A DNA stretch of 54,072 nucleotides from a bacterium (GCA_018401295.1 JAGYLJ010000004.1:1-54072), one strand, 5' to 3'; counted from the first letter of the stretch, positions 103 to 54,072 are shown. Notes: generated from the sequence alone by a model not told the origin. Numbers and translations: made by a program.

Positions 103-130
103 GCCTCGGTAATTTTTATAAAAACAAAGG

Positions 131-262
131 GCTAAAACATCTTCGATGTTCGCCCGATCAAAAAAATGCTTTGATTTAGGACTAAAACATCTTCGATGTT
201 CGCCCGATCAAAAAAATGCTTTGATTTAGGGCTAAAACACACTAAAGAATGTTTGCCTAAAG
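131..262 (+). repeat. 2.5 tandem copies of a 50-bp hairpin-rich unit in the efflux-operon leader
   Basis: 131-180 and 181-230 are identical except for the first base. 231-262 is a degenerate third copy running into the RBS. Confidence 0.9.
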
Positions 263-19472: not shown

Positions 19473-20726
19473 TTATGGTTTTGTAATTTGAAAAGCCATT
19501 AGTGTCAGATAAATTTCTTTGTTGGGGTCTGATGGGTGCTCAAACTTGTAGCTAAAGATTGTATCTGACCCTTCCAGTTCTGCATTAGTCAAAGAATATT
19601 CTGATTTGAAGTTTGTATGAGTATTCAAAGTTTCTCTAGCCTTCTCTAAAATAGCCGATAGGTCATTTTGTTTGTTAAATAGAACAATTGAGGTTTTGGT
19701 ATCTCTCCAAGTCACGTATCCGAATAATTGCTTTATTGTTTCCTCCAAATTCCTTTTTCCCTTCCAAAATTTACATTCAGCAATAAAGGCGTTCGCATTC
19801 TGGTGACGAATAAGTATGTCTGTTTTACCTATACCATTGAATGTCTCACCTGTAGCTGTTCCTTTATAATGCCCATTGAGGAGTATCAAAAAGAAATCTC
19901 TTATTTCCTCCTCTGTCAGTTTAGAGAATGTGGCGGGACTACGTTCCATTGCGACTGCCATATCTTTCATAATAGTGAGAATATTTTCGTATTCTGAAAC
20001 ATCAAGTGTCGGTTCAGGTGTATATTTTTTTACCTTTGGAGGTAGTACTATTTTTGGTTTTCTTTGAATTTCTGGAATGCAATATGTTTCTGGTACGTTA
20101 TCATGCTTCTTGATAGGTATTTTTAAAGACTGTATAAGGGTCTGGCTTTTTGAAGCAGTGTTCCGTCTCTCATTCAATTTTTCCTTTATAATGCCTGGTA
20201 TTTGAGCATTGAGCCTACCTATGTCAGCATTCAACCTCTCCGCATTTGTTGAAATCATACTTACATCTTGGTTGTAGTGACCTTCCAAATTTGCGTTGTC
20301 TCCAGCTTCAACTCTGTATGGTAGATGTATTTCATTTCCATTTACAAAGCCATCCATTTTGCGACTCATATTCATTGCACGAGAGGTTGGCTGGATTTCA
20401 AACAATGAGGGGTCTCCTTCAAAAGGGACGTGCACTGTGAAGTTAATATAATTTCGGTTTATGTTGATGTATTCATTTTGCCATATTCGGTCTTGTACTC
20501 GCTCTCTTACACTTTCTTCGCGTGGATATTCTGGCAAGTAAACTTCATTGGATTTTATAACAATTGGCTGTACAAGAAATCGCTCCTCAAAATATTTTAC
20601 TAACTCTTCAACAGGGGTATTCAATACATCATCTGCATTGTATCCGTGAATAGCAGATATAAGAGAATTCTTTTTCCCTTGTTCAAAGTCATGAAAAGAT
20701 TGTCCAAAAAATAGTTCTCCCCTCAT
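19473..20726 (-). CDS. 417-aa protein with C-terminal PD-(D/E)xK (restriction-endonuclease-like) domain
   Basis: GKTDILIRHQNANAFIAECKFWKGK = D-x13-E-x-K. The N-terminal ~250 aa has no recognisable motif. Confidence 0.5.
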   Translation of the reverse strand: MRGELFFGQSFHDFEQGKKNSLISAIHGYNADDVLNTPVEELVKYFEERFLVQPIVIKSNEVYLPEYPREESVRERVQDRIWQNEYININRNYINFTVHVPFEGDPSLFEIQPTSRAMNMSRKMDGFVNGNEIHLPYRVEAGDNANLEGHYNQDVSMISTNAERLNADIGRLNAQIPGIIKEKLNERRNTASKSQTLIQSLKIPIKKHDNVPETYCIPEIQRKPKIVLPPKVKKYTPEPTLDVSEYENILTIMKDMAVAMERSPATFSKLTEEEIRDFFLILLNGHYKGTATGETFNGIGKTDILIRHQNANAFIAECKFWKGKRNLEETIKQLFGYVTWRDTKTSIVLFNKQNDLSAILEKARETLNTHTNFKSEYSLTNAELEGSDTIFSYKFEHPSDPNKEIYLTLMAFQITKP

Positions 20727-21020: not shown

Positions 21021-21878
21021 GTGAAAAAGATAATAGAACCTGAAAAAATAATATTAAAAAATAGTTCTGATATTTCTGAGAAAATTATACAGGATAAAAT
21101 AGCCTCTGACCCTTCGATTTTGGGTCTTGGCGATTTAATTTTGAAAGACAAAGAAAGAATCCAACCCAGAGCCGGTAGACTAGATTTATTATTACAGGAC
21201 TCAGATACCAAAAGAAGGTACGAAGTGGAAATTCAATTAGGCAAAACAGACGAGAGCCATATAATAAGAACTTTGGAATATTGGGATATTGAAAGAAAAA
21301 GGTACCCTCAATATGATCATTGTGCTGTTATTATCGCTGAGGACATAACAACTCGTTTTCATAATATAATAAGTTTATTTAACGGAAATATACCAATTAT
21401 TGCTATTCAGATGAATGCGTATAAATTTGGAGATGATATTGCCCTTATTTTTAATACTGTATTAGATGAGTTAACTCTTGGTTTTGATGATGAAGAAGAA
21501 AAAGAAGCCACAGATCGTAAATACTGGATTGGTGTAGGTAGTGAATTAACTGTTAAAATGGCTGATAGTCTTTTAGAAATTATTAACGAATTTTCAGAGG
21601 GCTATTCTTTAAAATATAATAAATTTTATATTGGGTTATCCAAAGATGGACAACCTAATAATTTTGCTGTTTTTCGTCCAAGGAAAAAAGCTTTAAGTAT
21701 AGAAATTAAACTTCCTTTTTTAGAAGAAATACAAAAAATCATTGAGGATAATGATCTTGATGATATGGGTTATTTGAAGAGATGGGGTGTTTTTAGATTA
21801 AGATTAGATAAGGAAGATATCGCTAAAAAAAGAGACGTTCTGAAAGATTTGTTACAGAGAGCTTATGAAAATAAGTAG
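21021..21878 (+). CDS. hypothetical protein with N-terminal nuclease-fold-like segment
   Basis: RLDLLLQDSDTKRRYEVEIQLGKTDESH resembles a PD-(D/E)xK core with Q in place of K. First gene of the co-directional RM block. Confidence 0.4.
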   Translation: MKKIIEPEKIILKNSSDISEKIIQDKIASDPSILGLGDLILKDKERIQPRAGRLDLLLQDSDTKRRYEVEIQLGKTDESHIIRTLEYWDIERKRYPQYDHCAVIIAEDITTRFHNIISLFNGNIPIIAIQMNAYKFGDDIALIFNTVLDELTLGFDDEEEKEATDRKYWIGVGSELTVKMADSLLEIINEFSEGYSLKYNKFYIGLSKDGQPNNFAVFRPRKKALSIEIKLPFLEEIQKIIEDNDLDDMGYLKRWGVFRLRLDKEDIAKKRDVLKDLLQRAYENK

Positions 21879-21950: not shown

Positions 21951-23981
21951 ATGCAAATATCAGAACTTATAAAATCCAGCGGTAAATACGATTTAACCGT
22001 ATTTTCAGAAGAAAGTATAGACAGGATTGAGGAAAATATCCTTGAAGACAAGGGTAAATTTTTCATTAAATGTCTTGTCAGAGAAAGAGATATTCAAGTA
22101 AAACCAGAGGAGATTGTTCGGCAGTTGATGATAGACAAACTTATCAATGAATATAATTATCCAAAAGATTTGCTTAGGGTTGAACATACCGTTACTTTCG
22201 GAAAGGAAAAGAAATCGGCTGATATTGTTATCTTAAACAAAGCAGACAAAACCAGTGTTTATTGTGTGCTTGAAATCAAAAAATATAATCTCAAAGAGGG
22301 TAAAGAACAATTAAAAAGTTATACCAATGCCACAGGAGCACCTTTGGCAGTCTGGACGAATGGGACAGAGATAGATTTTTATGAAAGGCTTGATCCTAAT
22401 TACTTTGAACCACTTTCAGATATTCCCAAAGCAAATGAAACGATTGATGATGTAAAAAACGAAAGGTTTACCTACCTCGGCTTAATGCAAAAAGATAGGT
22501 TGTTAGAAGAGAGAAAAAGTCTTAAAGCGTTGATACAGGAAATTGAAGATGAAGTTTTGGCTAATGCTGGAGTAGATGTTTTTGAAGAAGTTTTCAAACT
22601 TATTTTTACCAAACTTTATGATGAAATGGAAAGTTCTGAAGACAGAGTTTCTATTGAAAGAGATTTTAAGAGAATTAAAAAAGATAATCCTGATTTAACC
22701 GATAAAGAAGTTTTAGATAAAATTGATAATAGTGATTTTAGAAAACTTGAATTTAGAAGTCGTGGAGATGCTTATCATACCAAAGAAGTTATCAATGAAT
22801 TATTCAAGAAAGCCAAAAACAAATGGCAGGGTATTTTTGATCAAGGAGAACCATTAAGGATAACAGATGTGAACCATTTACAAATTTGTGTTGGTTTTTT
22901 GCAGAATGTAAAACTTTTTAACTCTAATCTTCAAGTTATTGATGAAGCCTTTGAGTATTTGGTAAATAAATCAGCCAAAGGAGAAAAGGGACAATACTTT
23001 ACACCAAGAAATGTAATTGATATGTGTGTCTATATGATGAACCCGAAGCCGAGTGAATATATGATAGATACGGCTTGTGGTTCTTGTGGTTTTACCGTCC
23101 ACACCCTCTTTAATGTCTGGAATAAATTACAAAATCAAGGTAAAGCCAATTTTCATAACTTCTCAAACCAAAAATTGACCCAAGAACAGAAAGATTATGT
23201 TGTTAAGGTGTTTGGTATTGATTTTGACGAAAAGTCCGTGCGTGTCGCCAGAACCCTTAATATGATTGCAGGAGACGGGAGAACCAATGTTTTGCACCTA
23301 AACACCCTTGATTACACCCGTTGGGAGGAAAAAATAAAGGATAGCGAATGGGGCAGGACTTATCTTGAAGGTTTTTATCGTTTGCTTGATTTAGCCAAAG
23401 ATAGAAAAAATCCAAAAGAATTTAATTTTGATATGGTTATGGCTAATCCGCCTTTTGCGGGAGATATAAAAGATGGACGTTTGATCTCTGATTATAATGT
23501 GGCTTTTAACAAAGGGAAAAAAGTAAATAAAATTTCAAGGGATATTTTATTTATTGAAAGAAATTTAGATTTCTTAAAAGACGGTGGAAGAATGGCAATT
23601 GTTTTACCACAAGGCAGATTTAACAATACATCAGATGAAAGAATACGAGAATTTGTAATGGAAAAGGCACGACTTATTGCAGTGGTTGGTTTAGATGGTA
23701 ATACTTTCAAACCTCACACAGGAACAAAGACTTCTGTTTTGTTTGTCCAAAAATGGGACGATAAAATCAATCCAAAAGTAGAAGACTACCCTGTGTTTAT
23801 GGCTGTATCAGAAAATTCTGGTAAAGATAATTCAGGAGAGGAAATTTATGAAGTTGACGAAAAGACAGGAGAAAGAAAGGTAGATGAACATAACCACTTA
23901 ATGCAAAAACACGACTTAGACGATATTGCTTTTGCTTTTGAAAAATGGGCAAAGGAGAATAAATTGAGTTTTTGGAAATAA
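21951..23981 (+). CDS. N6-adenine DNA methyltransferase fused to an N-terminal HSDR_N-type PD-(D/E)xK domain (BcgI-A-like / HsdM-like)
   Basis: N-terminus PEEIVRQL...ADIVILNK..VYCVLEIKK...AVWTNGTEIDFYER. MTase motif I DTACGSCGF and motif IV NPPFAG. Confidence 0.85.
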   Translation: MQISELIKSSGKYDLTVFSEESIDRIEENILEDKGKFFIKCLVRERDIQVKPEEIVRQLMIDKLINEYNYPKDLLRVEHTVTFGKEKKSADIVILNKADKTSVYCVLEIKKYNLKEGKEQLKSYTNATGAPLAVWTNGTEIDFYERLDPNYFEPLSDIPKANETIDDVKNERFTYLGLMQKDRLLEERKSLKALIQEIEDEVLANAGVDVFEEVFKLIFTKLYDEMESSEDRVSIERDFKRIKKDNPDLTDKEVLDKIDNSDFRKLEFRSRGDAYHTKEVINELFKKAKNKWQGIFDQGEPLRITDVNHLQICVGFLQNVKLFNSNLQVIDEAFEYLVNKSAKGEKGQYFTPRNVIDMCVYMMNPKPSEYMIDTACGSCGFTVHTLFNVWNKLQNQGKANFHNFSNQKLTQEQKDYVVKVFGIDFDEKSVRVARTLNMIAGDGRTNVLHLNTLDYTRWEEKIKDSEWGRTYLEGFYRLLDLAKDRKNPKEFNFDMVMANPPFAGDIKDGRLISDYNVAFNKGKKVNKISRDILFIERNLDFLKDGGRMAIVLPQGRFNNTSDERIREFVMEKARLIAVVGLDGNTFKPHTGTKTSVLFVQKWDDKINPKVEDYPVFMAVSENSGKDNSGEEIYEVDEKTGERKVDEHNHLMQKHDLDDIAFAFEKWAKENKLSFWK

Positions 23982-23985
23982 AAAA

Positions 23986-25026
23986 ATGACTAATGAACAA
24001 ATAACAACTGAAAATGTATTAAGTGTTGATATAAAAAAGTTAGCACTAAATTCTGATTTTGGAAAAATGATTTTTGAAAATGCAAATATAAAATTAACAA
24101 AAATCCAAAATTGGCTAAAGGAAGCAAAAGATTTAGAATATGAAAAACTTCTTATTGAGAAAGATAAAAAACAAATAATTACATTTATAAATCAACTTAT
24201 AGAACACTTAGAGTGGCTACGAAATTTTGATATTGGGAATGTCTCAAACACTCAGGCAGAGCACGATAATTTTGATAATAGAATAAATAGTTATTACGAT
24301 ACAGTTTATCAAAATTTAGTAATGAAATACCTACCTTTTTTAAGAGAGGAAAAAAGGAGACAAAATCCTAATGAAAAAAAATTGGAAGAAGAAGTTCGTA
24401 ATGTATCACAACTCCGCAAGAATTTAGAGAAAGAATTAGAAAATGTAAAAATTGATATTGAAAAAATAAGAACAACAGGTAAAGAGGTTGGGTCGGCTAA
24501 AGGAACTCGTGCTACTTTAGATACAGGGAAACATTTTAATGATGAAGTAACTCGTTATGAAAAATTAGCAAAAGTGTGGTTAATATCAGCCGTGTTTTGT
24601 TATTTTGTAATTATAGTGGTTCTTTTTTGGTTAGGAAGCGAAACTTTTTCTTATTTAGAAAAATTGATTAAATCATCTAATAATCCAGAAACTTCTTATA
24701 TAAGTTCTATTTGGGGAGTTGTAGTTTCTAAATTAGTTATTTTGGCAACTTTATGGTATGGGCTTTCTTTTGTTATAAAAAATTATAATGTAAATTCACA
24801 TCTTGCATCTGTAAATAGACATAGGGCAACTGTGGCTAAAACTTTGGAGGATTTTATTTCAGCCGAACAACAACAGGAAAAACCAAGATTATCAGAAATG
24901 TTACAAAACGCCACAGAAGCGATGTTCAAAAATGCTCCAATAGGTTTTATTTCAAAAACAGAAAAAGAAACAGGAAACCCTGTTTTGCAAATAGTAAATG
25001 ATATTATGGGGGCTAACGAGAAATAA
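23986..25026 (+). CDS. coiled-coil protein with two C-terminal TM helices, embedded in the RM operon
   Basis: long K/E-rich helical N-terminal part, TM1 VWLISAVFCYFVIIVVLFWLG, TM2 IWGVVVSKLVILATLWYGLSFVI. 5-nt gap from the methylase stop. Confidence 0.6.
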   Translation: MTNEQITTENVLSVDIKKLALNSDFGKMIFENANIKLTKIQNWLKEAKDLEYEKLLIEKDKKQIITFINQLIEHLEWLRNFDIGNVSNTQAEHDNFDNRINSYYDTVYQNLVMKYLPFLREEKRRQNPNEKKLEEEVRNVSQLRKNLEKELENVKIDIEKIRTTGKEVGSAKGTRATLDTGKHFNDEVTRYEKLAKVWLISAVFCYFVIIVVLFWLGSETFSYLEKLIKSSNNPETSYISSIWGVVVSKLVILATLWYGLSFVIKNYNVNSHLASVNRHRATVAKTLEDFISAEQQQEKPRLSEMLQNATEAMFKNAPIGFISKTEKETGNPVLQIVNDIMGANEK

Positions 25027-25043
25027 ACTAAGTTTAATAATTT

Positions 25044-25601
25044 ATGTCAGATTTAGTAGAAAAATTAAATAAAAATCACTCAGAGGAATTAAAAAAGATG
25101 AGTATTTTATTTTATCTATTAAATAGAATTGAAAATAATCTTAATATCATTATAGAAATTTTCTTTTGTGATTTTAATCAACTGAAAAATGTTATCTTAA
25201 ATCAAATCCTCTTGAATAAAAATATGAAATTAGAGACGAAAAGAATGATGTTTTTGAAAATAATTGAACACACTACAAGATACGCAGAAGAAGGTAATTT
25301 TGAATTTGAAGAGGATAAGTGGTTAAAATTTTGTAAAGACTTACAAAAAATTCAAGAAATTAGAAATAAGTTGGCTCATAAGTTTTTAGGGTTTAACCAA
25401 AATGTTGTTTCCTATCAAGAAACCTTAAAGAACAATAATAATAAAAATTATTCCTTTAATAAAAAAGAAATAAATTTAGATGAGGAAATAAAAAAGTTTG
25501 ATAAAATTTTTGATGAAAGTGAGTTATTGCTTACTGATTTTCTAAAACAGGTGTTGCCGATTGTTCGTGATTGTCAAAAATGTAATTTATCTGATATATA
25601 A
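25044..25601 (+). CDS. small HEPN-like protein (RNxxxH motif), embedded in the RM operon
   Basis: IQEIRNKLAHKF = R-N-x3-H in a predicted helical protein of 185 aa. 4-nt gap to hsdS. Confidence 0.5.
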   Translation: MSDLVEKLNKNHSEELKKMSILFYLLNRIENNLNIIIEIFFCDFNQLKNVILNQILLNKNMKLETKRMMFLKIIEHTTRYAEEGNFEFEEDKWLKFCKDLQKIQEIRNKLAHKFLGFNQNVVSYQETLKNNNNKNYSFNKKEINLDEEIKKFDKIFDESELLLTDFLKQVLPIVRDCQKCNLSDI

Positions 25602-25604
25602 AAT

Positions 25605-26945
25605 ATGCCACAAATAAGCACAGTTAAATACTCCGATATTCAAGAAGCAAAAAGATATGACGCTGAGTATTTTAAGCCTGAGTATATTGAAATATCAAAT
25701 AATTTAAAGAGATTAAAATCACAAGATTTAGAAAAATATTGTATTTTTGTAAAGAAAGGGATTTTTGACATATCCCCAACAAAATATAAAAATAAAGGGG
25801 TTCCATTTTTAAGAGTATCTAATACAAAATCATTTTTTATTAACAATGAAGATATGGTTTATCTTGATGAAGAAACGCACAATGAAAATAATAAAACTGA
25901 ATTAAGAAAAGGAGATATAGTTCTGTCTAAGGTTGGAACAATTGGAGATGCTGTAATAAATTTAGATTATGAAAAAATAAATTTTAGTCAAAATAATATC
26001 GGTATTAAAATTAAACAAGATGAAATTAACCCTGCTTACGTTATCGCTTTTTTCAATTCAAAATATGGGAGAAAACAAATTGAGAAACAGCAATCTGGTC
26101 AAGTTCAAGAAAAAATAGTCTTAGATGATATAAAATTTTTAAAAATTCCAAGGTTGAATAATGAAAATTTAATTGCATATAAAGTCTTAGAATCAAAACA
26201 AAAACAAAATAAATCAAAAGATTTATATAGGCAAGCCGAAGAATTGCTTTTGAAAGAATTGAATTTGCTGGATTATAAACTAAAACATAGTTTGTCTTTT
26301 GAAGCTACTGCAAAAGATATAAAAGAAGTTAAAAGGTTTGATAGTGAATATTTTCAACCAAAATATGAAGAAGTTATAAGTAAAGTTGAAAGTTATAAAA
26401 ATGGTTGGGATTTTGTTAAAAATCAGTTTAGCCAAAATAACTTTATTTTTAAAAGCGATAAAGATTATTATAACTATATAGAAATTAGTGATATAAACGT
26501 CTCAAATGGAGGAATAAGCCCCAACAAAGTCAGGACAGAAGACTTACCCGCTAATGCAAAAAGAAAACTAAACAAAGGCGATTTGCTAATTTCAAAAGTT
26601 AGACCTTACAGAGGGGCTGTATCTTTTATTGATTTTGAGTTAGAGAACCTTGTCGGAAGCGGTGCTTTTACTGTTTTGCGAGAAAAAACAAATTATAAAA
26701 AAGAAGTTTTGATGATTTTTTTGAGGACTTCTTTTATAAGGAATTTGTTGTTACGTTATAATTCAGGAACTTCTTATCCTGTGATTGTTGATAAAGATAT
26801 CTTGGATACGAAAATACCTTTGATTGATATAAAACTTCAAAAACAAATTTCAGAAAAGATAAAAGAAAGTTATGGATTAAGAAAAGAAAGTGAACAACTT
26901 CTTGAACAAGCCAAAAGAATGGTTGAGGAAGAAATTGAGAGGTAA
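25605..26945 (+). CDS. hsdS: restriction-modification specificity subunit (HsdS-like, two TRDs)
   Basis: duplicated architecture: RYDAEYFKPEY and RFDSEYFQPKY open each half, with conserved helical spacers (LYRQAEELLLKEL, LLEQAKRMVEEEI). Confidence 0.85.
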   Translation: MPQISTVKYSDIQEAKRYDAEYFKPEYIEISNNLKRLKSQDLEKYCIFVKKGIFDISPTKYKNKGVPFLRVSNTKSFFINNEDMVYLDEETHNENNKTELRKGDIVLSKVGTIGDAVINLDYEKINFSQNNIGIKIKQDEINPAYVIAFFNSKYGRKQIEKQQSGQVQEKIVLDDIKFLKIPRLNNENLIAYKVLESKQKQNKSKDLYRQAEELLLKELNLLDYKLKHSLSFEATAKDIKEVKRFDSEYFQPKYEEVISKVESYKNGWDFVKNQFSQNNFIFKSDKDYYNYIEISDINVSNGGISPNKVRTEDLPANAKRKLNKGDLLISKVRPYRGAVSFIDFELENLVGSGAFTVLREKTNYKKEVLMIFLRTSFIRNLLLRYNSGTSYPVIVDKDILDTKIPLIDIKLQKQISEKIKESYGLRKESEQLLEQAKRMVEEEIER

Positions 26946-29803: not shown

Positions 29804-30127
29804 TTATTTGTCAGTGAGAGGTTCGACTGATTTGTAATAAAACAGATTGATCTTTTTGGGATAAGTTTCTATCACTTCTCCCTTATCATCCTTTTTCTCT
29901 ATGTAAGCAATGGTTTGCAAAGCCTTGCTACCTTTTTTAGGACGGTAACCTAAGCTAATCCATTTTGCGAAAGTGAAAGTCTTGTAGGGGTCATAATGTT
30001 TAACCTCTTTAGCTCCGTAGATGGTTCTAATTTGTTCTTTAACCATTTCTCTTGTCTTTTCTGATCCTTTGTAGGAAGAGATAATGGAATCATCTTCTAA
30101 GATCTCCTTAATACTTAATATGCTCAT
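29804..30127 (-). CDS. 107-aa protein, weak ArdC-N/ssDNA-binding-like motif
   Basis: start moved to ATG 30127 (MSILSIKE...). TFAKWISLGYRPKKGSKAL resembles the F..W..LGR.VkKGEKg motif of ArdC N-terminal domains. Confidence 0.35.
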   Translation of the reverse strand: MSILSIKEILEDDSIISSYKGSEKTREMVKEQIRTIYGAKEVKHYDPYKTFTFAKWISLGYRPKKGSKALQTIAYIEKKDDKGEVIETYPKKINLFYYKSVEPLTDK

Positions 30128-30478
30128 AATTAGTAGTTTGTTTAATGAATAAAAAGCACGAGAGACTAACTCGTGCTGTGAGAAGACTAATATCGACCTT
30201 GTCTTCATTAACTTAGTTTTAATTGTTTTGGATGTCGGGGGGGGAGTTGTTTGATTTAACATCCACCCATCAGAAAGAGATGTTAAGGTAACGGTATTAT
30301 CTGTGTCCGCGACTACTTTTTTGAAAAAGTTGGGGTTTTGAAAGAGAGGGACCTAAAAATTTTTCTCAAAAATTTTGAGGAAAATGGGCAGGTTGCGAGA
30401 TTAGATTAAACGGGATATTATTAAGATACAACTAAATATGACCTAACCCTTTTGAACTTCAAAAGGTATGGTTGAAAA

Positions 30479-30580
30479 ACACAAGCGAGATAAAAAACCT
30501 ATCATTAGGGCACTCGCTTGTGTTATACGGGGAAACCTGTATATGAGCTTCGGCTCTCCTAGTGGTAGGCTTTTTGTTTG
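30479..30580 (+). ncRNA. candidate ~100-nt structured small RNA or attenuator
   Basis: four consecutive hairpins. 30479-30523 is an 11-bp stem. 30524-30543 closes on a GAAA loop with a plus-strand-only G.U pair. 30545-30556 is GAGC-UUCG-GCUC. 30558-30569 is CCTA-GTGG-TAGG, followed by CTTTTTG. Confidence 0.4.
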
Positions 30581-34119: not shown

Positions 34120-34142
34120 ATTGTTTTTATATAAAATCCTTA

Positions 34143-34178
34143 AGAGAGTGAGTCGCCAGTGACTCACTCTCTTTTTTA
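34143..34178 (+). terminator. Rho-independent terminator
   Basis: AGAGAGTGAGTC-GCCAGT-GACTCACTCTCT followed by TTTTTT. Confidence 0.75.
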
Positions 34179-34290
34179 TTAGGATAGCTTAAGAAGAATC
34201 TTAAGCTGATTTTTTTATAAAAATAGCAAACGAGATTTTTCTCTAACAAAGGTCGAAAAATATTATTAACAAATAATTAATTTAAAAAAA

Positions 34291-34548
34291 ATGAAAACAA
34301 TTAAAAACAACGACGAGTCAAAGAAAACTATAATTTTACCAGGCTTAAAAAATGATATTGAGGACATTAAGAAAAAAAGTTCTATTTCGGAGGATCTTAT
34401 TATTCTCCATTTTTATTCAGTTGAGAGTTCTCTCATATCAGGAGAGTTAACCTTAGACGACACTTTTATAAGTGGAATCGGTGACTTGCACGCTATCAAA
34501 CAGTATCTATCAGAAATAGCTGGTGAAGAAGTTGTGCTTTTTTGGTAG
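34291..34548 (+). CDS. 85-aa ORF whose C-terminus duplicates the S49 peptidase C-terminus
   Basis: LDDTFISGIGDLHAIKQYLSEIAGEEVVLFW versus LDNGLIDYIGSLYDVKEYLSNLIGEEVVICE of 32353-33195. Confidence 0.45.
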   Translation: MKTIKNNDESKKTIILPGLKNDIEDIKKKSSISEDLIILHFYSVESSLISGELTLDDTFISGIGDLHAIKQYLSEIAGEEVVLFW

Positions 34549-34580
34549 GTATCTCTTATTAGAAATTTAAGTAAAAAAAT

Positions 34581-34772
34581 ATGAAAACACTAAAAGTAAA
34601 AAAAATTTATAAAAAATATTCTCTGAAAGACACTTCTTTGTTCGGTAAAGAATTGAAAAAAGGAGATACGATGTTCGAAGTTATAAAGTATTTTGAAAAA
34701 CACAATCAAAGAAGAAATAAAGCTACTGACGACATCTTAAGGGCAATAGCAACAAAAATGGGAGCATTATAA
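34581..34772 (+). CDS. 63-aa basic hypothetical protein
   Basis: track ORF, no motif. Confidence 0.35.
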   Translation: MKTLKVKKIYKKYSLKDTSLFGKELKKGDTMFEVIKYFEKHNQRRNKATDDILRAIATKMGAL

Positions 34773-34842
34773 TTAAAAAAATCAGTGATTCTGTAAAAAA
34801 CAATGAGAAGAAGAAAGGATCACTAAAACTAATTCAAAAAAA

Positions 34843-35091
34843 ATGAAATCAATTAAAGCTCGTTACGAGCAGGTTAGGAGAAAACTTTCAGAATCTTACT
34901 CAACTTATATTTGTTTTTCTAGGACGATAGAAGGACAAAAATTTAGTTATGAATCTATAAGTAAAAACTTTAGTTTTTTGGTCGACAAAGATGATTACGC
35001 TAAAAATGAAAGAAACCAGATTTTAAGACACTTGCATTGTCTTTCAAATACCCTTGAGGAGCACGAGTTAGGGCAAAAAAATCGTTTATAA
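34843..35091 (+). CDS. 82-aa hypothetical protein
   Basis: track ORF, no motif. Confidence 0.35.
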   Translation: MKSIKARYEQVRRKLSESYSTYICFSRTIEGQKFSYESISKNFSFLVDKDDYAKNERNQILRHLHCLSNTLEEHELGQKNRL

Positions 35092-35246
35092 GAGCCTAAA
35101 ACACTGAAGGTCATAGATTGTGTTATGTCACTAGAAAGCACCATTAAAAATAGAAAAAATGCTGTAAAAACTGGTTTTGACATAAACCACTTGAATAAGG
35201 TTTTGATTTGAACAGATTATTAGAACTAAATTAAAAATAATTTATT

Positions 35247-35514
35247 ATGGAAGAAAAAATAAAAACACCGGAGGAGTATTTAAAACTCTTTCCTAATACG
35301 CGGCTTCGTTACCTTCATGATGTTAATAAAACAGTCATACAAGGTAAGTGACAAACTTGACATGTCGTGGAATGAAAAAGGATATGGGGTTTTCTTTACT
35401 GTTAATGGATTTCCACCTACAGGTAAAACAGACCAAGCCCATCTTTTATCTTTGAACGGTAATTATGTTGATTTTGATACAGATGATGCTTTGGAGATTT
35501 TAGAATGTTTGTAG
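35247..35514 (+). pseudogene. frameshifted, truncated primase-polymerase (AEP/prim-pol) gene remnant
   Basis: MEEKIKTPEEYLKLFP... (35247-35351), then a +1 frame gives KGYGVFFTVNGF...KTDQAHLLSLNGNYVDFD (the GxxFTxNxF ... hhhhDxD motif I region). Stop after ~65 aa. Confidence 0.5.
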
Positions 35515-36432
35515 AGTTATTTTATAAACAAAAAAGGGACTGTGTTATAATGGAAAAGTTAGTTAATTTGACTAACCAGGATGAAGAGTTATGTGAGCAT
35601 CTAGAAAACCTTTTCAAGATGTTCTCATAACTCGGGAACATCCTGAAAGGGTTTTTTATTTAAATAGTAACTTGCTTTCAAAAAAGTTTAAAACATTTAA
35701 ATTTACCCATTGAAAATTGAAAAATGTTTGAACCTCTGGACTCTTATCTAAAAGCCTTCGGGCCCAGTTCAAACTACATACAAAGAACCCTTTGCTGGAA
35801 GGTTGAGGTAATTCTTTAACAATTAGCGGTAATAAGAGAGTCCGTAGTGGCAAAGATACGGCAAGATTCGGACTTAAATCTTTAGACAATATAGCGAAGC
35901 ATTAAACAGGATCTTCTAATGTAATTTTTCTCAAACTATATTGAATGGGTTACAAATTGTAACCAAGTCACCAAGATTGATGTTTTTACATCACATCCTT
36001 CGTCGCCGAGAAAACTTAGACAGCGAAAAGGAAGAGGAACTATGATCCTCCTCAATAAAACACTGGAAATTTACTAGTCAATAGGTTGTACTAACAAAAT
36101 TGACCAAAAACACTGCTAATTGGACAAACCCGAAAAAAGGGAGTCATTTTTAAATTGTTTTATTTAAACCAATTTAATTTAGACCAATTTATCTTTTTTA
36201 GATGATTTGGTCTAAAAAAAGAATGGCCCTCCGGGCTTGTCCGTTCAAAGACTACTTAGAACTTAACAAGTAGCAAGTAAATGATTGATACAATGTTATA
36301 TTTTTGTAGTTTCTTGTTCGCAACTATCAAATGTATGTTTATTGTTAGTTGTTAATTTGAAATAATAAATAAGTTTTATATTAATGCATTATACATAATG
36401 TTTGGGCATATCTATTGGTTTATGGTCATTTA

Positions 36433-36492
36433 TACTAGTATAAATACTAGTATTGATACTAGTATAAATAGTAGTATCAATACTACTAAGAA
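36433..36492. repeat. five 12-bp-periodic boxes with palindromic core TACTAGTA (iteron/operator array)
   Basis: TACTAGTAT at 36433, 36445 and 36457, TAGTAGTAT at 36469, TACTACTAA at 36481. Exact 12-bp spacing. Confidence 0.85.
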
Positions 36493-36724
36493 TAAAGAAT
36501 GAAGGAAGGTAGAATTCTCAAATGCCATAGCCAAATTCCAGCAATAGAGATTATTAAATAATTTAAAAAGGCAGTTGTTCTAATTTCAGAATGACTGCCT
36601 TTTTTTATGGATAGAGGTATTTTTTTATTTAAATAGTTATCCCACAGACGAAAATTGGGACTGGCGTATACTGTAGTAAACAATATGATATGAAATTCCT
36701 TATTATTAATTTAAGAAAACGAAC

Positions 36725-36934
36725 ATGTCAGAAAATAAAAAGACTGTGGTTTCGTTTAAGGATAAAGATAAAGTTAAAGATGAGCATAAGTTTAGAGATA
36801 CGGTTATGTTAAGAGTTAGTCGTAGTTTAAGGGATGAATTAAAAAAAGAATCGGAAAGAACTTTTATAACTATGTCGCAATTAGGAGACTGGGCATTAAA
36901 AGATTATCTTGATTCAGTTAAATCTTTAGATTAG
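36725..36934 (+). CDS. ribbon-helix-helix (CopG/Arc-like) DNA-binding protein
   Basis: VMLRVSRSLRDELKKESERTFITMSQLGDWALKDYL = beta-strand plus two helices, the RHH pattern. Confidence 0.55.
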   Translation: MSENKKTVVSFKDKDKVKDEHKFRDTVMLRVSRSLRDELKKESERTFITMSQLGDWALKDYLDSVKSLD

Positions 36935-37098
36935 TAGGTTGTGGAGTTTTGTAAACAAAATTTCTCTACAAAGCTTCATTTAAGAAGGATTTTTCTTAAA
37001 TGATATCTTGTCTACCTTTGATCTATTTCGGGCATAAAAACCTGATTTTGGCTCTCCGGGAGGGATAAGATACTTTTTTAGGAAAAATAAAAACAGAA

Positions 37099-37187
37099 TT
37101 ATATGAAGCGAGCATATAATTTCATCATTCGGATTATATAAAAACATATTATTACTTAATCGTTTTTATAAATCCTCACTCGAAATT
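37099..37187 (+). repeat. ~90-bp conserved upstream region, copy A (copy B at 48335-48424)
   Basis: TTATATGAAGCGAGCATATAATT...TTCGGATTATATAAAAACAT..TTATTACTTAATCGTTTTTATAAATCCTCACTCGAAATT-ATG. Roughly 85-90 percent identical by eye to copy B. Confidence 0.85.
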
Positions 37188-37403
37188 ATGAACAAAATTA
37201 ATGAAAAAGAAGAAAATCCGACTCTTTCCATCAATGTATTTGATACTTTGAAGATACAGGCCAAAATGACTTTTGATACTTGTTTTGTTGATGGCATTCA
37301 GTTTACTTATTGGATGGAAGACGAAGACCAAATTAAAGAACGCATAGACGGTATTTTTGATATTCTTTTTGATGAGATAATTAGAGGTGAAAATAGTAAT
37401 TAA
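37188..37403 (+). CDS. 71-aa acidic hypothetical protein upstream of the recombinase
   Basis: track ORF, possible recombination directionality factor by position only. Confidence 0.4.
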   Translation: MNKINEKEENPTLSINVFDTLKIQAKMTFDTCFVDGIQFTYWMEDEDQIKERIDGIFDILFDEIIRGENSN

Positions 37404-37432
37404 TCAGATAACGGGGTAAAATAAAAATAAAT

Positions 37433-39103
37433 ATGGAAACTAAAATTGAAAGAGAAATAAAGTTTATTGCTACTTATTCGAGGGTGTCTACTTCTGCACA
37501 GGAAGTGCAAGAAACAATTCAAAATCAGATTAACTCTTTAAAAGAATATGCTAAGAAAAATAATTGGGAAATAATTCATGAGTATAAAGATGAGGGTTGG
37601 AGTGGGGATGTTCTTAAACGTCCCGGATTAGATCAATTAAGAATCGATGCTAAAAGAAAAGTTTGGGATGCTGTTCTCATTTATGACCCTGACAGATTAG
37701 CGCGAAGATATTCTTATCAAGAGTTAGTGATGGATGAATTAAAAGAAGCGGGAGTGCAAGTGCTTTTTGTTACTGTCGGAACTCCTCAAAATAGTGAGGA
37801 TAAAATTCTTTATGGAGTGAGGGGGCTGTTTGCTGAATATGAAAGAACTAAGATTGCGGAGAGGTTTAGATTAGGGAAGGTCAGTCGAGTAAAGAACGGA
37901 CATATTTTAACCACAGAGGCTCCTTATGGTTATACCTATATTCTCAATCAAGGAAAAAAAGGAGATGCTAATTATATACCAGGCCATCTAGAGATTAATG
38001 AAGATGAAGCTAAGGTAGTGAGAGAAATATTTTCTTGGGTAGCAGATAAAGGGCTGACTGTTCGAGGTGTGGTGAAAAAATTGCAGAAATTAGGCATTCA
38101 GCCAAGAAAAAGTAAGCGAGGAGTGTGGAGCACCAGCTCTCTCAGCACAATGTTACGAAGAGAAACATATATCGGGACGGCTTATTGGAGGAGATCAGAG
38201 GCAATAATACCTGCACATCCTTTAAAGGATGAGAAGTATAAGAAAGTGAAAAAAACTAGTAGACGCTTGAGATCTAAAGAAGAATGGGTCCCGATAACAG
38301 GTATTCCCAAAATTATTGATGAGGATTTATTTAACAGAGCGGGGGAAAGATTAAAAAGTAATTTTGCTACTTTAGGGAGGAATCGGAAATATGAGTATTT
38401 GCTCTCAGGGAAAGTGCGTTGTGGTTGTGGTTGTACAAGAACCGGGAGCGCTACCCAAAAAGGTAAGCATTTGTATTATTGCTGTTCTAATAGGGTCCAT
38501 TCTTTTCCTTTACCTCCCACTTGTTCAGATAGGGCTGTCAATGCCAAAATAACAGATAGAGAATTATGGCACAGGGCTAAATTATTATTGACTTCACCAG
38601 ATTTAATCTTGCGACAAGTTGAGATATGGAATGCAAAATGTAAAAATATTAAATCCGGTGCTGGGTTGCTTGATATAAAGGACCTTCAGAACAAGATAGA
38701 TAAATTAAAAGCAGAAGAAGGTCGAATTGTGGATTTGTATTCTAAAGAAATGATTTCGTTAGAAATGTTTAAAGAAAAGGTTAAGCCAATTAGAGAGAAA
38801 ATTAAAGGGTATGAGGGACAAATCATTAAAGCTAAATTAGAGAAAAATTCTAAAGAAGATTTGTCGGTGGTGGTTAGTGAGAAAGATATTAAAACTTTTA
38901 CGGAGGGGATAAAATCTAAGTTAAACAACTTGAGTTTTACTGCAAAACAAGATATTGTTAGACGTATTACTAATGAAGTAACTATTAGTCACAATTCATT
39001 ACAGGCTTATGGTTGCTTTAATCTAAAAGAAATTTATGACGCGTTGTGTTCTAAGTATAGGAATTGTGGGGCTACCCAACGTTGGGAAATCGACCTTGTT
39101 TAA
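37433..39103 (+). CDS. large serine recombinase (integrase)
   Basis: resolvase catalytic domain ATYSRVSTSAQ...DAVLIYDPDRLAR, recombinase domain, Cys-rich zinc-ribbon CGCGCTRTG...YYCCSN, C-terminal coiled coil. The last ~22 codons overlap ychF out of frame. Confidence 0.9.
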   Translation: METKIEREIKFIATYSRVSTSAQEVQETIQNQINSLKEYAKKNNWEIIHEYKDEGWSGDVLKRPGLDQLRIDAKRKVWDAVLIYDPDRLARRYSYQELVMDELKEAGVQVLFVTVGTPQNSEDKILYGVRGLFAEYERTKIAERFRLGKVSRVKNGHILTTEAPYGYTYILNQGKKGDANYIPGHLEINEDEAKVVREIFSWVADKGLTVRGVVKKLQKLGIQPRKSKRGVWSTSSLSTMLRRETYIGTAYWRRSEAIIPAHPLKDEKYKKVKKTSRRLRSKEEWVPITGIPKIIDEDLFNRAGERLKSNFATLGRNRKYEYLLSGKVRCGCGCTRTGSATQKGKHLYYCCSNRVHSFPLPPTCSDRAVNAKITDRELWHRAKLLLTSPDLILRQVEIWNAKCKNIKSGAGLLDIKDLQNKIDKLKAEEGRIVDLYSKEMISLEMFKEKVKPIREKIKGYEGQIIKAKLEKNSKEDLSVVVSEKDIKTFTEGIKSKLNNLSFTAKQDIVRRITNEVTISHNSLQAYGCFNLKEIYDALCSKYRNCGATQRWEIDLV

Positions 39104-52832: not shown

Positions 52833-54072
52833 ATGAGGAAATTTAATAGAAGTTCAATAGTAGTCGTGTCAGCTGTTTTCTTGATGTTTTCTGTTTTTTC
52901 AATCACTACGTTTGCGGCTGGTCCAGCAACGGTCAATCTTGGTTCAGCGGGTGATTTTGTTGTTTTGGCAAAGTCTGGAATTTCAACAACTGGAACAACC
53001 CTAATTACTGGAGATATTGGAGTAAGCCCAATTAACGCGGTTGCTATAACTGGTTTTGGGTTAACGATGGATACCTCAAGTACATTTTCAACGTCAGCCT
53101 TGGTAAATGGAAAAGTATACGCAGCTGATTACACAGCTCCTACTCCAACTAAAATGACCACAGCTATAAGCGATATGGAAACTGCTTATACAGATGCTGC
53201 TGGAAGAACAAGTCCTATTGAGACTGGATTAGGTGCCGGAGACATTGGTGGAATGACACTCGCTCCAGGGCTTTATAAATGGGGTACTAACGTGATAATT
53301 CCAACGGATGTTACTCTCTCTGGTGGTGCGAATGATGTTTGGATCTTTCAGATAGCACAAAATCTTACCATAAGTTCAGATATAGAAGTTGTCTTGAGTG
53401 GTGGTGCACAGGCTTCTAATATTTTCTGGCAGGTTGCTGGTCAAACAACGCTTGGGACAAACTCTGTCTTTAATGGAAATATATTGGATCAAACAGCAAT
53501 TGTGTTGAACACGGGGGCAACACTAAATGGTAGGGCCTTGGCGCAGACTGCAGTTACGCTTGACGCTGATATTGTCTCCCTTCCTGTTGTTTCCGTAACA
53601 ACTCCAGTTAACGGTTCTTGTTCTACTACTCACTACAGTTGTAACACCGGCACCAGTGTGAGTAACGTTGATGGTTCTACTACTTGGACTTGGTCTTGTA
53701 CAGGTTTAAATAGTGGTACCACCGCTTCATGTTCAGAAACAAAACCAGTGACAACTACTCCAGTTAATGGTTCTTGTTCTACTACCCACTACAGTTGTAA
53801 TACTGGCACCAGTGCGAGCAACGTTGATGGTTCTACTACTTGGACGTGGTCTTGTACAGGTTTAGATGGTGGTACCACTGCTTCATGTTCAGAAACAAAA
53901 CCAGTGACAACTACTCCAGTTAACGGTTCTTGTTCTACTACTCACTACAGTTGTAACACCGGCACCAGTGTGAGCAACGTTGATGGTTCTATTACTTGGA
54001 CTTGGTCTTGTACAGGTTTAAATAGTGGTACCACTGCTTCATGTTCAGAAACAAAACCAGTGACAACTACCC
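52833..54072 (+). CDS. secreted DUF3494/ice-binding-like beta-solenoid protein with C-terminal Cys-containing tandem repeats (3' partial)
   Basis: signal peptide MRKFNRSSIVVVSAVFLMFSVFSITTFA. LGSAGDFVVLAKSGISTTGTTLITGDIGVSP typical of DUF3494. The ORF runs off the window end. Confidence 0.75.
   Translation, partial: MRKFNRSSIVVVSAVFLMFSVFSITTFAAGPATVNLGSAGDFVVLAKSGISTTGTTLITGDIGVSPINAVAITGFGLTMDTSSTFSTSALVNGKVYAADYTAPTPTKMTTAISDMETAYTDAAGRTSPIETGLGAGDIGGMTLAPGLYKWGTNVIIPTDVTLSGGANDVWIFQIAQNLTISSDIEVVLSGGAQASNIFWQVAGQTTLGTNSVFNGNILDQTAIVLNTGATLNGRALAQTAVTLDADIVSLPVVSVTTPVNGSCSTTHYSCNTGTSVSNVDGSTTWTWSCTGLNSGTTASCSETKPVTTTPVNGSCSTTHYSCNTGTSASNVDGSTTWTWSCTGLDGGTTASCSETKPVTTTPVNGSCSTTHYSCNTGTSVSNVDGSITWTWSCTGLNSGTTASCSETKPVTTT
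53598..54072 (+). repeat. at least 3 near-identical tandem repeats of 156 bp (52 aa, 4 Cys each)
   Basis: units start at 53598 (153 bp), 53751, 53907 and 54063. Each encodes TTPVNGSCSTTHYSCNTGTS.SNVDGS.TWTWSCTGL.(S/G)GTTASCSETKPV. Confidence 0.9.

What the first reader, a model, noticed from the sequence alone, without database searches (positions are those of the whole stretch)
21951..26945. HSDR_N-fused adenine methyltransferase and HsdS separated by a coiled-coil 2TM protein and an RNxxxH HEPN protein; no HsdR motor
The 676-aa protein combines an N-terminal HSDR_N-type PD-(D/E)xK domain (ADIVILNK...VLEIKK...TNG) with a gamma-class N6A methylase (DTACGSCGF, NPPF). The two-TRD specificity gene lies 1.6 kb downstream. 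No helicase/translocase subunit is present anywhere in the window. The layout is therefore either BcgI-like (type IIB: nuclease-methylase A subunit plus S-like B subunit) or an M.S-only system. Two genes sit between M and S with 4-17 nt gaps. One is a 346-aa coiled-coil protein ending in two TM helices. The other is a 185-aa helical protein with IRNKLAH, the HEPN RNase signature. Established precedent: abortive-infection RNases are embedded in type I RM operons, for example PrrC in EcoprrI and RloC. A HEPN plus 2TM-effector pair nested inside an RM operon would be a back-up suicide module guarded by the RM complex. I do not recognise this pairing as a described system.
Basis: partly seen in the sequence, partly recalled or inferred. 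Interest (0 to 1): 0.72.

Follow-up and report, generated by a model that had tools for sequence, protein, structure and literature searches.

The report
Motor-less restriction system with two cargo genes
A two-gene BcgI/BsaXI-like restriction-modification module in a Patescibacteria genomic island carries two unrelated, undescribed passenger genes in a slot between its genes that commonly holds other defence genes, so it is a new example of a known arrangement rather than a new paired system.

Summary
The 676-aa protein is a fused nuclease-methyltransferase. Its best solved relative is the type IIB enzyme RM.BsaXI, aligned over both domains. Its nuclease motif (E78, D91, E108-x-K110, Q120xxxY124) is 95-99% conserved in 79 relatives. 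No HsdR gene lies in the window, and none lies next to 77 related loci. A Zymomonas system of the same architecture restricts DNA without HsdR.

The 185-aa protein belongs to a small undescribed family of 42 proteins. Its only invariant residues are R107, N108 and H112. Members give weak but consistent matches to Csm6/Csx1-type HEPN domains. Structure search found no relative.

The 346-aa protein belongs to a Patescibacteria-only membrane family with no Pfam model. It sits directly after the methylase gene in four of eight contexts examined.

The "pair" reading fails. The two genes never co-occur elsewhere. In the closest relative the 346-aa gene is replaced cleanly by an AlbA_2 gene. The slot between the methylase and specificity genes holds varied cargo in 41 of 67 related loci, including RhuM, OLD-like ATPases, Fic, DUF1016 and a complete Pycsar system.

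Verdict: new members of a known kind, of moderate interest.

The parts
21951..23981 (+). RM subunit (676 aa): an N-terminal PD-(D/E)xK nuclease domain fused to a gamma-class N6-adenine methyltransferase
   Evidence: Pfam HSDR_N_2 plus N6_Mtase. PADLOC MTase_I PDLC03034 at 856 bits. The best PDB relative is RM.BsaXI 8w0p, E 2.9e-25, aligned in both domains.
22104..22427 (+). Nuclease domain (aa 52-159) with E78, D91, E108-x-K110 and Q120xxxY124
   Evidence: These residues are 95-99% conserved in 79 family members. E108/K110 align with the BsaXI catalytic residues E105/K107.
22935..23966 (+). Methyltransferase domain (aa 329-672) with DTACGSCGF (motif I) and NPPF (motif IV)
23986..25026 (+). X1 (346 aa): a cytoplasmic helical/coiled-coil N-domain, a 2-TM hairpin and a conserved C-terminal tail. 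It is cargo gene 1.
   Evidence: About 96 homologues, all from Patescibacteria and all without a Pfam model. It is replaced by another gene in L001-L003.
24574..24777 (+). The two TM helices of X1 (aa 197-217 and 243-264) with a poorly conserved outer loop
   Evidence: Hydropathy and column conservation
24778..25023 (+). Conserved X1 tail (aa 265-346) with invariant N266, N277, H279, R280 and D289; R278 is conserved in at least 90% of members
25044..25601 (+). X2 (185 aa): a stand-alone HEPN-like protein. It is cargo gene 2.
   Evidence: The family has 42 members. R107, N108 and H112 are the only invariant columns. Profile hits to HEPN families are weak but consistent.
25362..25379 (+). RNKLAH, the Rx4H motif (aa 107-112)
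   Evidence: Invariant R, N and H in 34 aligned members
25605..26945 (+). Specificity subunit (446 aa) with two TRDs and conserved regions
   Evidence: Against L001, only the conserved regions keep DNA homology and the TRDs differ (42% aa identity).
21021..21878 (+). Upstream DUF5655-like / PDC-S18-like gene on the same strand, 72 nt before M. It is probably further island cargo.
   Evidence: A homologue lies just downstream of S in L016.
19473..20726 (-). PDC-S54 candidate defence gene, which marks the region as a defence island
   Evidence: PADLOC PDLC05036, 427 bits, full length
37433..39103 (+). Large serine recombinase at the edge of the low-GC island (about 16.5-37.4 kb)
   Evidence: Pfam Resolvase, Recombinase and Zn_ribbon_recom. 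GC is 0.30 in the island against 0.34-0.36 in the flanks.

Best explanation
The locus is a motor-less, type IIB-like restriction-modification module: a fused nuclease-methyltransferase (RM) subunit plus a type I-like S subunit. By analogy with BsaXI and BcgI it probably assembles as (RM)2S. S would read a bipartite site, the RM subunit would methylate adenine on host DNA, and its N-terminal PD-(D/E)xK domain would cut unmethylated DNA near the site without ATP-driven translocation.

The module is highly mobile across bacteria and DPANN archaea. The junction between its two genes acts as a cargo slot. Unrelated defence genes are exchanged there, probably by recombination in the conserved 3' end of M and 5' end of S, and they are co-transcribed with the RM genes.

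In this window the slot holds two independent passengers.
- X2 is a minimal stand-alone HEPN protein of the Csm6/Csx1 sequence type. It is most likely a metal-independent RNase acting as an abortive-infection or toxin-type second line of defence.
- X1 is a Patescibacteria-specific inner-membrane protein with both ends in the cytoplasm. It is habitually placed and translationally coupled directly after hsdM-type genes. It is most likely a membrane-acting defence effector or sensor.

Shown: gene structure, domain content, conservation, absence of HsdR, cassette replacement and slot variability. Inferred: restriction activity, RNase activity, any role of X1, and the recombination route.
For: RM module:
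- Domains and motifs.
- The best solved relative is the type IIB RM.BsaXI, collinear in the nuclease domain (27-123) and the MTase domain (315-602). It scores E 2.9e-25, against 1.7e-15 or weaker for type I HsdM.
- The BsaXI catalytic residues E73, D90, E105 and K107 were established by mutagenesis (PMC11997821).
- Of the 664 ORFs of 150 aa or more flanking 77 related loci, none matches an HsdR query even at E<=10. No other partner recurs in more than 10 loci.
- Zymomonas ZMO1934/1933 has the same architecture and restricts plasmids independently of the strain's only HsdR (PMC8432527).

Cargo slot:
- Of 67 loci with both M and S, 26 have them adjacent and 41 hold 1-7 inserted genes, essentially all on the same strand.
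- The inserts include RhuM, DUF4357/GIY-YIG, OLD-like AAA_15(+TOPRIM), YhcG/DUF1016, DUF6119, AlbA_2+HATPase_c_4, Fic, PDDEXK_3, a DpnII-like domain, an SDH-type protease and a complete Pycsar cyclase+PycTM pair.
- A clean cassette swap against L001-L003 has its breakpoints at gene ends.
- GC steps down from M 0.33 to X1 0.29 to X2 0.23.

X2:
- Only R107, N108 and H112 are invariant in 34 members that average 36% column identity.
- Pfam sub-threshold hits go to HEPN_LA2681, Cas_Csm6_HEPN, RiboL-PSP and Swt1.
- PADLOC CARF_HEPN/Csx1/Csm6 hits reach E 2.2e-6 and map to the C-terminal HEPN part of those models.
- A distant X2-like protein with an RNxxxH motif sits right after M in an archaeal locus.

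X1:
- It lies directly after the methylase gene (gap -4 to +13 nt) in the window, L007, L099 and L100.
- It lies next to type III-like or type IV restriction genes in L008-10 and L093.
Against: - No biochemical or phenotypic data exist for any of the four proteins.
- The confident X2 model (pLDDT 91) found no structural relative in the PDB or BFVD (best E 0.89 and 0.095, TM below 0.25). The motif sits at the C-terminal end of a helix, before a beta-hairpin, so HEPN fold membership is unproven.
- Pfam hits to HEPN families are all below the gathering thresholds.
Two of its eight contexts have no restriction genes.
- An HsdR encoded elsewhere in this genome cannot be excluded from a 54-kb window.
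- Three of the four RM operons that carry X1 also carry a HEPN gene. This leaves room for some functional link between X1 and HEPN proteins.
Confidence: 0.6

Rival explanations
1. X1 (a 2-TM effector) and X2 (a HEPN RNase) form one two-gene abortive-infection module. The RM complex holds it in check, and it is released when a phage inhibits restriction, as in the PrrC-EcoprrI logic.
For: The genes are adjacent (17 nt apart), on the same strand and co-oriented with M and S. A solo HEPN RNase needs some restraint. Three of the four RM operons with X1 also encode a HEPN protein, although of another family (DUF3644) and in another position. PrrC is a precedent (PMC3710099).
Against: The two families never co-occur outside this window, in 7 other X1 contexts and 5 other X2-family contexts. 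In the nearest relative X2 keeps its place while X1 is replaced by an AlbA_2 gene. X1 has no conserved partner gene at all. Most X2 relatives are not near RM genes. X2 lacks the ABC ATPase regulatory domain that defines PrrC and RloC.
Confidence: 0.1
2. M+S is a methylase-only (epigenetic or orphan) system with a vestigial nuclease-like domain. In that case the inserted genes are simply hitch-hiking island genes.
For: No restriction partner is present in the window. PADLOC and REBASE-type models label the protein only as a type I methyltransferase.
Against: The nuclease motif residues are 95-99% conserved. The N-domain is as conserved as the rest of the protein (0.62, against 0.59 for the linker and 0.69 for the MTase). 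M has a dN/dS of 0.05. The protein is homologous to an active type IIB nuclease domain. A system of the same architecture restricts plasmids in Zymomonas.
Confidence: 0.12
3. The locus is a reduced or variant MADS-type system, in which the two genes between the methylase and S are integral components, as mad3 and mad4 are in Pseudomonas MADS.
For: The best NCBIfam matches of M and S are MAD2 (E 7e-88) and MAD5 (E 5e-46). MADS also has two genes between its M and S, and both are needed for defence (bioRxiv 10.1101/2023.03.30.534895).
Against: Both scores are far below the model cut-offs (295 against 720, and 157 against 400). MAD6-8, which are mandatory in the published detection model, are absent from the window. 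X1 and X2 match no NCBIfam or PADLOC MADS model. Relatives of this M have anything from 0 to 7 unrelated genes in the slot.
Confidence: 0.04
4. X1 is not a defence effector. It is a membrane adaptor that places RM complexes at the cell membrane or DNA-entry site of Patescibacteria, or a mobile-element membrane protein such as a superinfection-exclusion factor.
For: X1 is tightly and probably translationally coupled to two different methylase families. It also occurs in integrase- or recombinase-flanked elements without RM genes. It has no toxin-like domain.
Against: Nothing speaks directly against it. The slot it occupies is otherwise filled by autonomous defence genes.
Confidence: 0.2

Closest known systems
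Type IIB restriction-modification enzymes of the RM+S group (BsaXI, BcgI)
   Same: An N-terminal PD-(D/E)xK nuclease is fused to a gamma-class N6A methyltransferase. A separate HsdS-like subunit carries two TRDs. There is no translocase. BsaXI is the best solved-structure match, and it is collinear in both domains.
   Different: The window protein is only 676 aa, against 916 aa for BsaXI, and nothing aligns with the C-terminal part of BsaXI. Sequence similarity is remote. Bilateral cleavage is untested. Two foreign genes separate RM and S.
Zymomonas mobilis ZM4 HsdMSc (ZMO1934/ZMO1933)
   Same: An HsdR_N-HsdM fusion plus HsdS. It restricts incoming plasmids without HsdR (PMC8432527).
   Different: Direct sequence relatedness to the window protein was not tested here. 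No embedded genes were reported in the passages read.
Genes embedded in type I RM, BREX and Hma operons ('guilt by embedding', Payne et al. 2024; TgvAB in Vibrio cholerae; PrrC/RloC; RhuM, Abi2 and DUF3644 HEPN genes)
   Same: Same-strand defence genes are nested between the subunit genes of a methylation-based system. They include HEPN RNases whose Rx4-6H histidine is needed for defence.
   Different: X1 and X2 match none of the published HEC/PDC, Pfam or NCBIfam models. The host system is the motor-less RM+S kind, and the organisms are Patescibacteria.
HEPN domains of CARF-HEPN proteins (Csm6/Csx1)
   Same: An RNxxxH motif in a helical domain. These are the best profile hits for the X2 family.
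   Different: X2 has no CARF sensor domain and no CRISPR context. It carries a beta-hairpin insert after the motif and has no detectable structural match.
MADS (MAD2 methylase and MAD5 specificity subunit)
   Same: These are the closest named NCBIfam families for M and S. MADS also has two genes between its M and S.
   Different: The scores are below the cut-offs, there are no MAD6-8, and the inserted genes are unrelated.

Membership tests
Type IIB RM (RM+S group: BcgI, BsaXI) | One polypeptide with an N-terminal PD-(D/E)xK nuclease and an N6A methyltransferase | tested here: met
   Pfam HSDR_N_2 plus N6_Mtase. Both domains align to RM.BsaXI. The catalytic-type residues are conserved.
Type IIB RM (RM+S group: BcgI, BsaXI) | A separate HsdS-like subunit with two TRDs | tested here: met
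Type IIB RM (RM+S group: BcgI, BsaXI) | No ATP-dependent translocase subunit | tested here: met
   None in the window. None beside 77 related loci. The rest of the genome was not seen.
Type IIB RM (RM+S group: BcgI, BsaXI) | [quoted passage not shown] | not testable with these tools
   This needs in vitro cleavage mapping.
Classical type I RM | An HsdR subunit with an SF2 helicase/translocase | tested here: not met
HEPN superfamily (X2) | A conserved Rx4-6H motif | tested here: met
   R107, N108 and H112 are the only invariant columns in 34 members.
HEPN superfamily (X2) | Profile similarity to established HEPN families | tested here: inconclusive
   Pfam HEPN families are hit only below threshold, in 7 member-hits. 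PADLOC CARF_HEPN/Csx1/Csm6 hits reach E 2.2e-6 and map onto the HEPN part of the models. hhalign against DUF3644 aligns only the motif.
HEPN superfamily (X2) | A helical-bundle HEPN fold | tested here: inconclusive
   The AF2 model (pLDDT 91) is mostly helical with a beta-hairpin insert. Foldseek found no PDB or BFVD relative.
HEPN superfamily (X2) | Metal-independent RNase activity | not testable with these tools
   Needs a biochemical assay.
PrrC/RloC anticodon nucleases | An N-terminal ABC-type ATPase fused to the nuclease domain | tested here: not met
   X2 is 185 aa and has no ATPase domain.
MADS | MAD6, MAD7 and MAD8 present (mandatory in the published model), and M and S above the NCBIfam cut-offs | tested here: not met
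   The scores are 295 against 720, and 157 against 400.
Known 2-TM defence effectors (SLATT, PycTM and the like) (X1) | A match to the family profile | tested here: not met
   No such Pfam or PADLOC hit for X1 or for 53 relatives. The only hits are weak coiled-coil noise, DUF6161 in 4 members and one NNH7 hit.
Embedded defence cargo of RM operons | Same-strand genes lying between RM subunit genes, in a slot that is variably occupied in related operons | tested here: met

The most novel reading that the evidence does not exclude
X1 defines an undescribed, Patescibacteria-specific membrane component that is functionally coupled to methylation-based restriction. It is translationally coupled to hsdM-type genes of two different families. 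It would act as the membrane output or sensor of a second-line response, possibly together with whichever HEPN RNase shares the operon: X2 here, DUF3644 in L099 and L100.
Probability: 0.15. Interest if true: 0.6.

Novelty: new member of a known kind. Interest (0 to 1): 0.35.

Why it matters
- It documents that the junction between the RM and S genes of a very mobile, motor-less restriction module is a hot spot for swapping defence genes. This holds across bacteria and DPANN archaea.
- It yields two candidate defence families that no current database models: a minimal Csm6/Csx1-like HEPN protein and a methylase-coupled membrane protein confined to Patescibacteria.
- Defence in these ultra-small, largely uncultured bacteria is poorly known, so both families are cheap and well-motivated targets for surrogate-host testing.
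- It does not reveal a new kind of system.

Tried and rejected
- Foldseek of the confident X2 model against the PDB and BFVD gave no meaningful match.
- The first X2 model, built from 3 sequences, was poor (pLDDT 62).
- A profile search of the PDB with the X2 and X1 alignments returned only noise.
- hhalign of the X2 family against a 2-sequence DUF3644 alignment aligned only the motif, at probability 0.5%.
- The word-indexed protein search with the X2 profile added almost nothing.
- The metagenome scan for X2 loci recovered only the already known L004.
- Viral-contig scans for X1 and X2 found nothing.
- The promoter and terminator scan was at chance level in this AT-rich DNA.
- A search for a conserved partner gene of X1 among its neighbours found none. 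The recurring proteins of about 275 aa are unrelated to one another.
- MADS, PrrC/RloC and SLATT-type memberships were considered and rejected (see the membership tests).

Full report
**1. Observation**

| Gene | Coordinates | Length |
|---|---|---|
| M | 21951-23981 | 676 aa |
| X1 | 23986-25026 | 346 aa |
| X2 | 25044-25601 | 185 aa |
| S | 25605-26945 | 446 aa |

- The junctions were read from the sequence. The spacers are 4, 17 and 3 nt.
- M carries Pfam HSDR_N_2 (aa 52-159, E 7e-27) and N6_Mtase (aa 329-672, E 2e-34). The quoted motifs are at residues 89, 107, 373 and 499.
- S matches type I specificity models over its full length. It also matches the solved Thermoanaerobacter HsdS.
- The only ORFs above 700 aa in the window are an AcrB-type pump and LeuRS, so no HsdR is present.
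- One detail needs correcting. X1 does not end in its TM helices (aa 197-217 and 243-264). An 82-residue tail follows and is the best conserved part of the family. It holds invariant N266, N277, H279, R280 and D289, with R278 conserved in at least 90% of members.
- dN/dS against the nearest relatives is 0.05 for M, 0.15 for X1 and 0.09 for X2, so all three are real genes under selection.

**2. Setting**

- X1's relatives are all from Patescibacteria. The flanks encode housekeeping genes: RelA/SpoT, LeuRS and YchF.
- The genes lie in a low-GC stretch of about 16.5-37.4 kb. Its GC is 0.30, against 0.34-0.36 in the flanks. It ends at a large serine recombinase at 37433-39103.
- Just upstream are a strong match to the candidate defence gene PDC-S54 (19473-20726, minus strand, 427 bits) and a DUF5655/PDC-S18-like gene.
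- This is a defence island on a probable integrative element.

**3. The M-S module**

- PADLOC places M in a REBASE-derived 'type I methyltransferase' family at 856 bits.
- Among solved structures the best match is the type IIB enzyme RM.BsaXI (8w0p, E 2.9e-25). It is ahead of all type I HsdM proteins (1.7e-15 or weaker).
- The match is collinear in the N-terminal nuclease domain (query 27-123) and in the methyltransferase domain (315-602).
- The BsaXI catalytic residues E73, D90, E105 and K107 were defined by mutagenesis and are conserved across type IIB enzymes (PMC11997821). E108-x-K110 of M aligns with E105-x-K107.
- In 79 family members E78, D91, E108, K110, Q120 and Y124 are 95-99% conserved. 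The N-domain is about as conserved as the rest of the protein.
- The genome scan confirmed 566 relatives and returned the best 80 loci, at 55-85% identity. They come from many bacterial phyla and from DPANN archaea.
- Among 664 ORFs of 150 aa or more flanking 77 of these loci, none matched an HsdR query even at E<=10. No other gene family recurred in more than 10 loci.
- A system of the same architecture in Zymomonas mobilis ZM4 (ZMO1934/ZMO1933) restricts plasmids. Removing the strain's only HsdR does not affect this. The authors note that such fusions have been reclassified as type II (PMC8432527).
- I therefore read M+S as a self-sufficient BcgI/BsaXI-like (RM)2S enzyme. Cleavage itself is inferred, not shown.

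**4. The slot between M and S**

- In 67 related loci holding both genes, M and S are adjacent in 26. In the other 41 they are separated by one to seven same-strand genes.
- The inserted genes fall into many unrelated families. Representatives are listed here:
  - RhuM
  - DUF4357/GIY-YIG
  - OLD-like AAA_15/AAA_21 ATPases, some with TOPRIM
  - YhcG/DUF1016 nuclease
  - DUF6119
  - AlbA_2+HATPase_c_4
  - Fic/DOC
  - PDDEXK_3
  - a DpnII-like domain protein
  - an SDH-type protease
  - a complete Pycsar pair (cyclase plus PycTM), in L043
- These are the classic passengers of type I operons. They were described by Anantharaman et al. 2013 (PMC3710099), by the 'guilt by embedding' study (bioRxiv 10.1101/2024.01.29.577857) and in the TgvAB case (PMC11411939).

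**5. X1 and X2 are not a pair**

- The closest relative of the locus is L001-L003. Its M is 92% identical and its X2 86% identical in protein.
- DNA homology with L001 runs to 3 nt past the M stop codon (23984). It resumes 8 nt before the X2 start (25036).
- Between these points the window has X1. L001 has an unrelated 475-aa AlbA_2/HATPase_c_4 gene.
- S keeps only its conserved regions, and the TRDs are exchanged (42% identity).
- GC steps down from 0.33 (M) to 0.29 (X1) to 0.23 (X2).
- No X1 or X2 homologue occurs in the other 80 M-family loci.
- In none of seven further X1 contexts, and none of five further X2-family contexts, do the two families meet.

**6. X2**

- A word-indexed search of 5.8 billion proteins found only two relatives. 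An exhaustive profile search of 1.84 billion representatives found 42 family members, all 115-205 aa and single-domain.
- In an alignment of 34 full-length members with a mean column identity of 36%, the only invariant columns are R107, N108 and H112. This is the RNxxxH form of the HEPN Rx4-6H motif.
- Per-member Pfam scans give only sub-threshold hits. The two most recurrent families are HEPN_LA2681 and Cas_Csm6_HEPN, with RiboL-PSP and Swt1 HEPN also hit.
- PADLOC scans are dominated by CARF_HEPN, Csx1 and Csm6 models. The best E is 2.2e-6. The aligned part is the C-terminal HEPN region of those models and covers the motif-bearing helix.
- AlphaFold with the 34-sequence alignment gives a confident model (pLDDT 91.3). 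It has long helices with a three-stranded hairpin inserted right after the motif.
- Foldseek finds nothing similar in the PDB or BFVD.
- I conclude that X2 is very probably a divergent stand-alone HEPN protein. Fold membership remains unproven.
- Apart from the window and L001-L003, family members are not next to RM genes.
- The exception is a distant X2-like 164-aa protein with RNTFAH. It sits immediately after M in a Woesearchaeota locus, L032.

**7. X1**

- About 96 homologues were found. They are 330-355 aa, they come only from Patescibacteria, and none has a Pfam domain.
- Family-wide Pfam scans give only coiled-coil noise, DUF6161 in 4 of 53 members, and a single near-threshold NNH7 hit. 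There is no PDB relative by sequence.
- Topology was inferred from hydropathy and flanking charge. Both the roughly 195-aa helical N-domain and the conserved tail face the cytoplasm, and the outer loop is not conserved.
- Context is the informative feature. In four of eight distinct contexts X1 lies directly after a methylase gene and before S, with a gap of -4 to +13 nt:
  - the window;
  - L007: HsdM-X1-T5orf172-HsdS-218aa-HsdR;
  - L099: HsdM-X1-HsdS-DUF3644-275aa-HsdR;
  - L100: HsdM-X1-278aa-HsdS-DUF3644-HsdR.
- In the last three the methylase is the canonical HsdM_N type and an HsdR is present. X1 is therefore not tied to the motor-less module.
- Elsewhere X1 precedes a type III-like Mod/helicase pair or sits between SRA-HNH and Mrr nucleases.
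- Two contexts lack restriction genes. X1 has no conserved partner.
- Three of the four RM operons with X1 also encode a HEPN protein, either X2 or DUF3644. With such small numbers, and given how common HEPN genes are in type I operons, I treat this as a lead only.

**8. Mechanism and rivals**

The best-supported picture has three parts.
- Its inter-gene junction serves as a recombinational cargo slot.
- In this slot sit two independent, co-transcribed passengers: a HEPN RNase of abortive-infection or toxin type, and a methylase-coupled membrane protein of unknown action.

Rivals:
- A methylase-only reading is disfavoured by the conserved nuclease motif and the Zymomonas precedent.
- A MADS variant is excluded. 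The scores are below the cut-offs, MAD6-8 are absent, and the slot content is variable.
- A non-effector role for X1 (membrane adaptor, or an exclusion protein of mobile elements) remains open.

**9. Novelty**

- The architecture of M+S, the embedding of defence genes in RM operons and HEPN passengers are all known.
- New here are two unmodelled protein families, the observation that the RM-S junction of this particular mobile module is a cargo hot spot, and X1's habitual position after hsdM in Patescibacteria.
- Verdict: new member of a known kind, with an interest score of 0.35.

Noticed in passing
window 30440-30557 (+): A full-length match to the Rfam LOOT RNA motif (RF03000) at 77 bits, against a gathering score of 46. 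It lies inside the same low-GC island, in the intergenic space before the ORF at 30629.
   Followed up: no
window 19473-20726 (-): A 417-aa protein matches the PADLOC candidate defence family PDC-S54 over its full length (427 bits). By eye, its C-terminal part has a D...ExK-like pattern.
   Followed up: partly
window 21021-21878 (+); L016 15372-15954: A DUF5655 / PDC-S18-like gene lies 72 nt upstream of M. Its only homologue among the 80 related loci lies immediately downstream of S in L016, so it may be another passenger that travels with this RM module.
   Followed up: partly
window 34120-37430: About 3.3 kb just before the serine recombinase has no ORF above 85 aa. It contains short AT-rich tandem repeats at 36158-36191 and 36432-36485. 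It could hold the attachment or regulatory region of the element.
   Followed up: no
window 53597-54070: A 156-bp tandem repeat of 3 copies at 93% identity runs to the end of the window. It is probably a repeated protein domain in a cut-off gene.
   Followed up: no
window 128-239: A 50-bp tandem repeat (2.2 copies, 96% identity) lies upstream of the HlyD/AcrB efflux genes.
   Followed up: no
L043 2511-3830: A complete Pycsar system (nucleotide cyclase plus PycTM effector) is embedded between the M and S genes of a related RM module in a Fusobacteriales MAG.
   Followed up: partly
L032 8758-9252: In a Woesearchaeota MAG a 164-aa protein with RNTFAH sits directly after the related M gene. It gives weak hits to HEPN_Cthe2314, Csm6_HEPN and the X2 family profile (E 0.0014). 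Two unannotated genes lie between it and S.
   Followed up: partly
L099 9318-10313; L100 10153-11115: Canonical type I operons of Patescibacteria that carry X1 after hsdM also carry a DUF3644 (HEPN) gene between hsdS and hsdR.
   Followed up: partly
window 29804-30262 (-): A weak, sub-threshold similarity to the ArdC N-terminal anti-restriction domain (E 0.003). If real, it fits a mobile element.
   Followed up: no
L004 2457-4330: The 44%-identical X2 relative lies 3 nt after a Trypsin_2 protease gene and near a DUF87 (HerA-like) ATPase. This is a different, non-RM context for the family.
   Followed up: no
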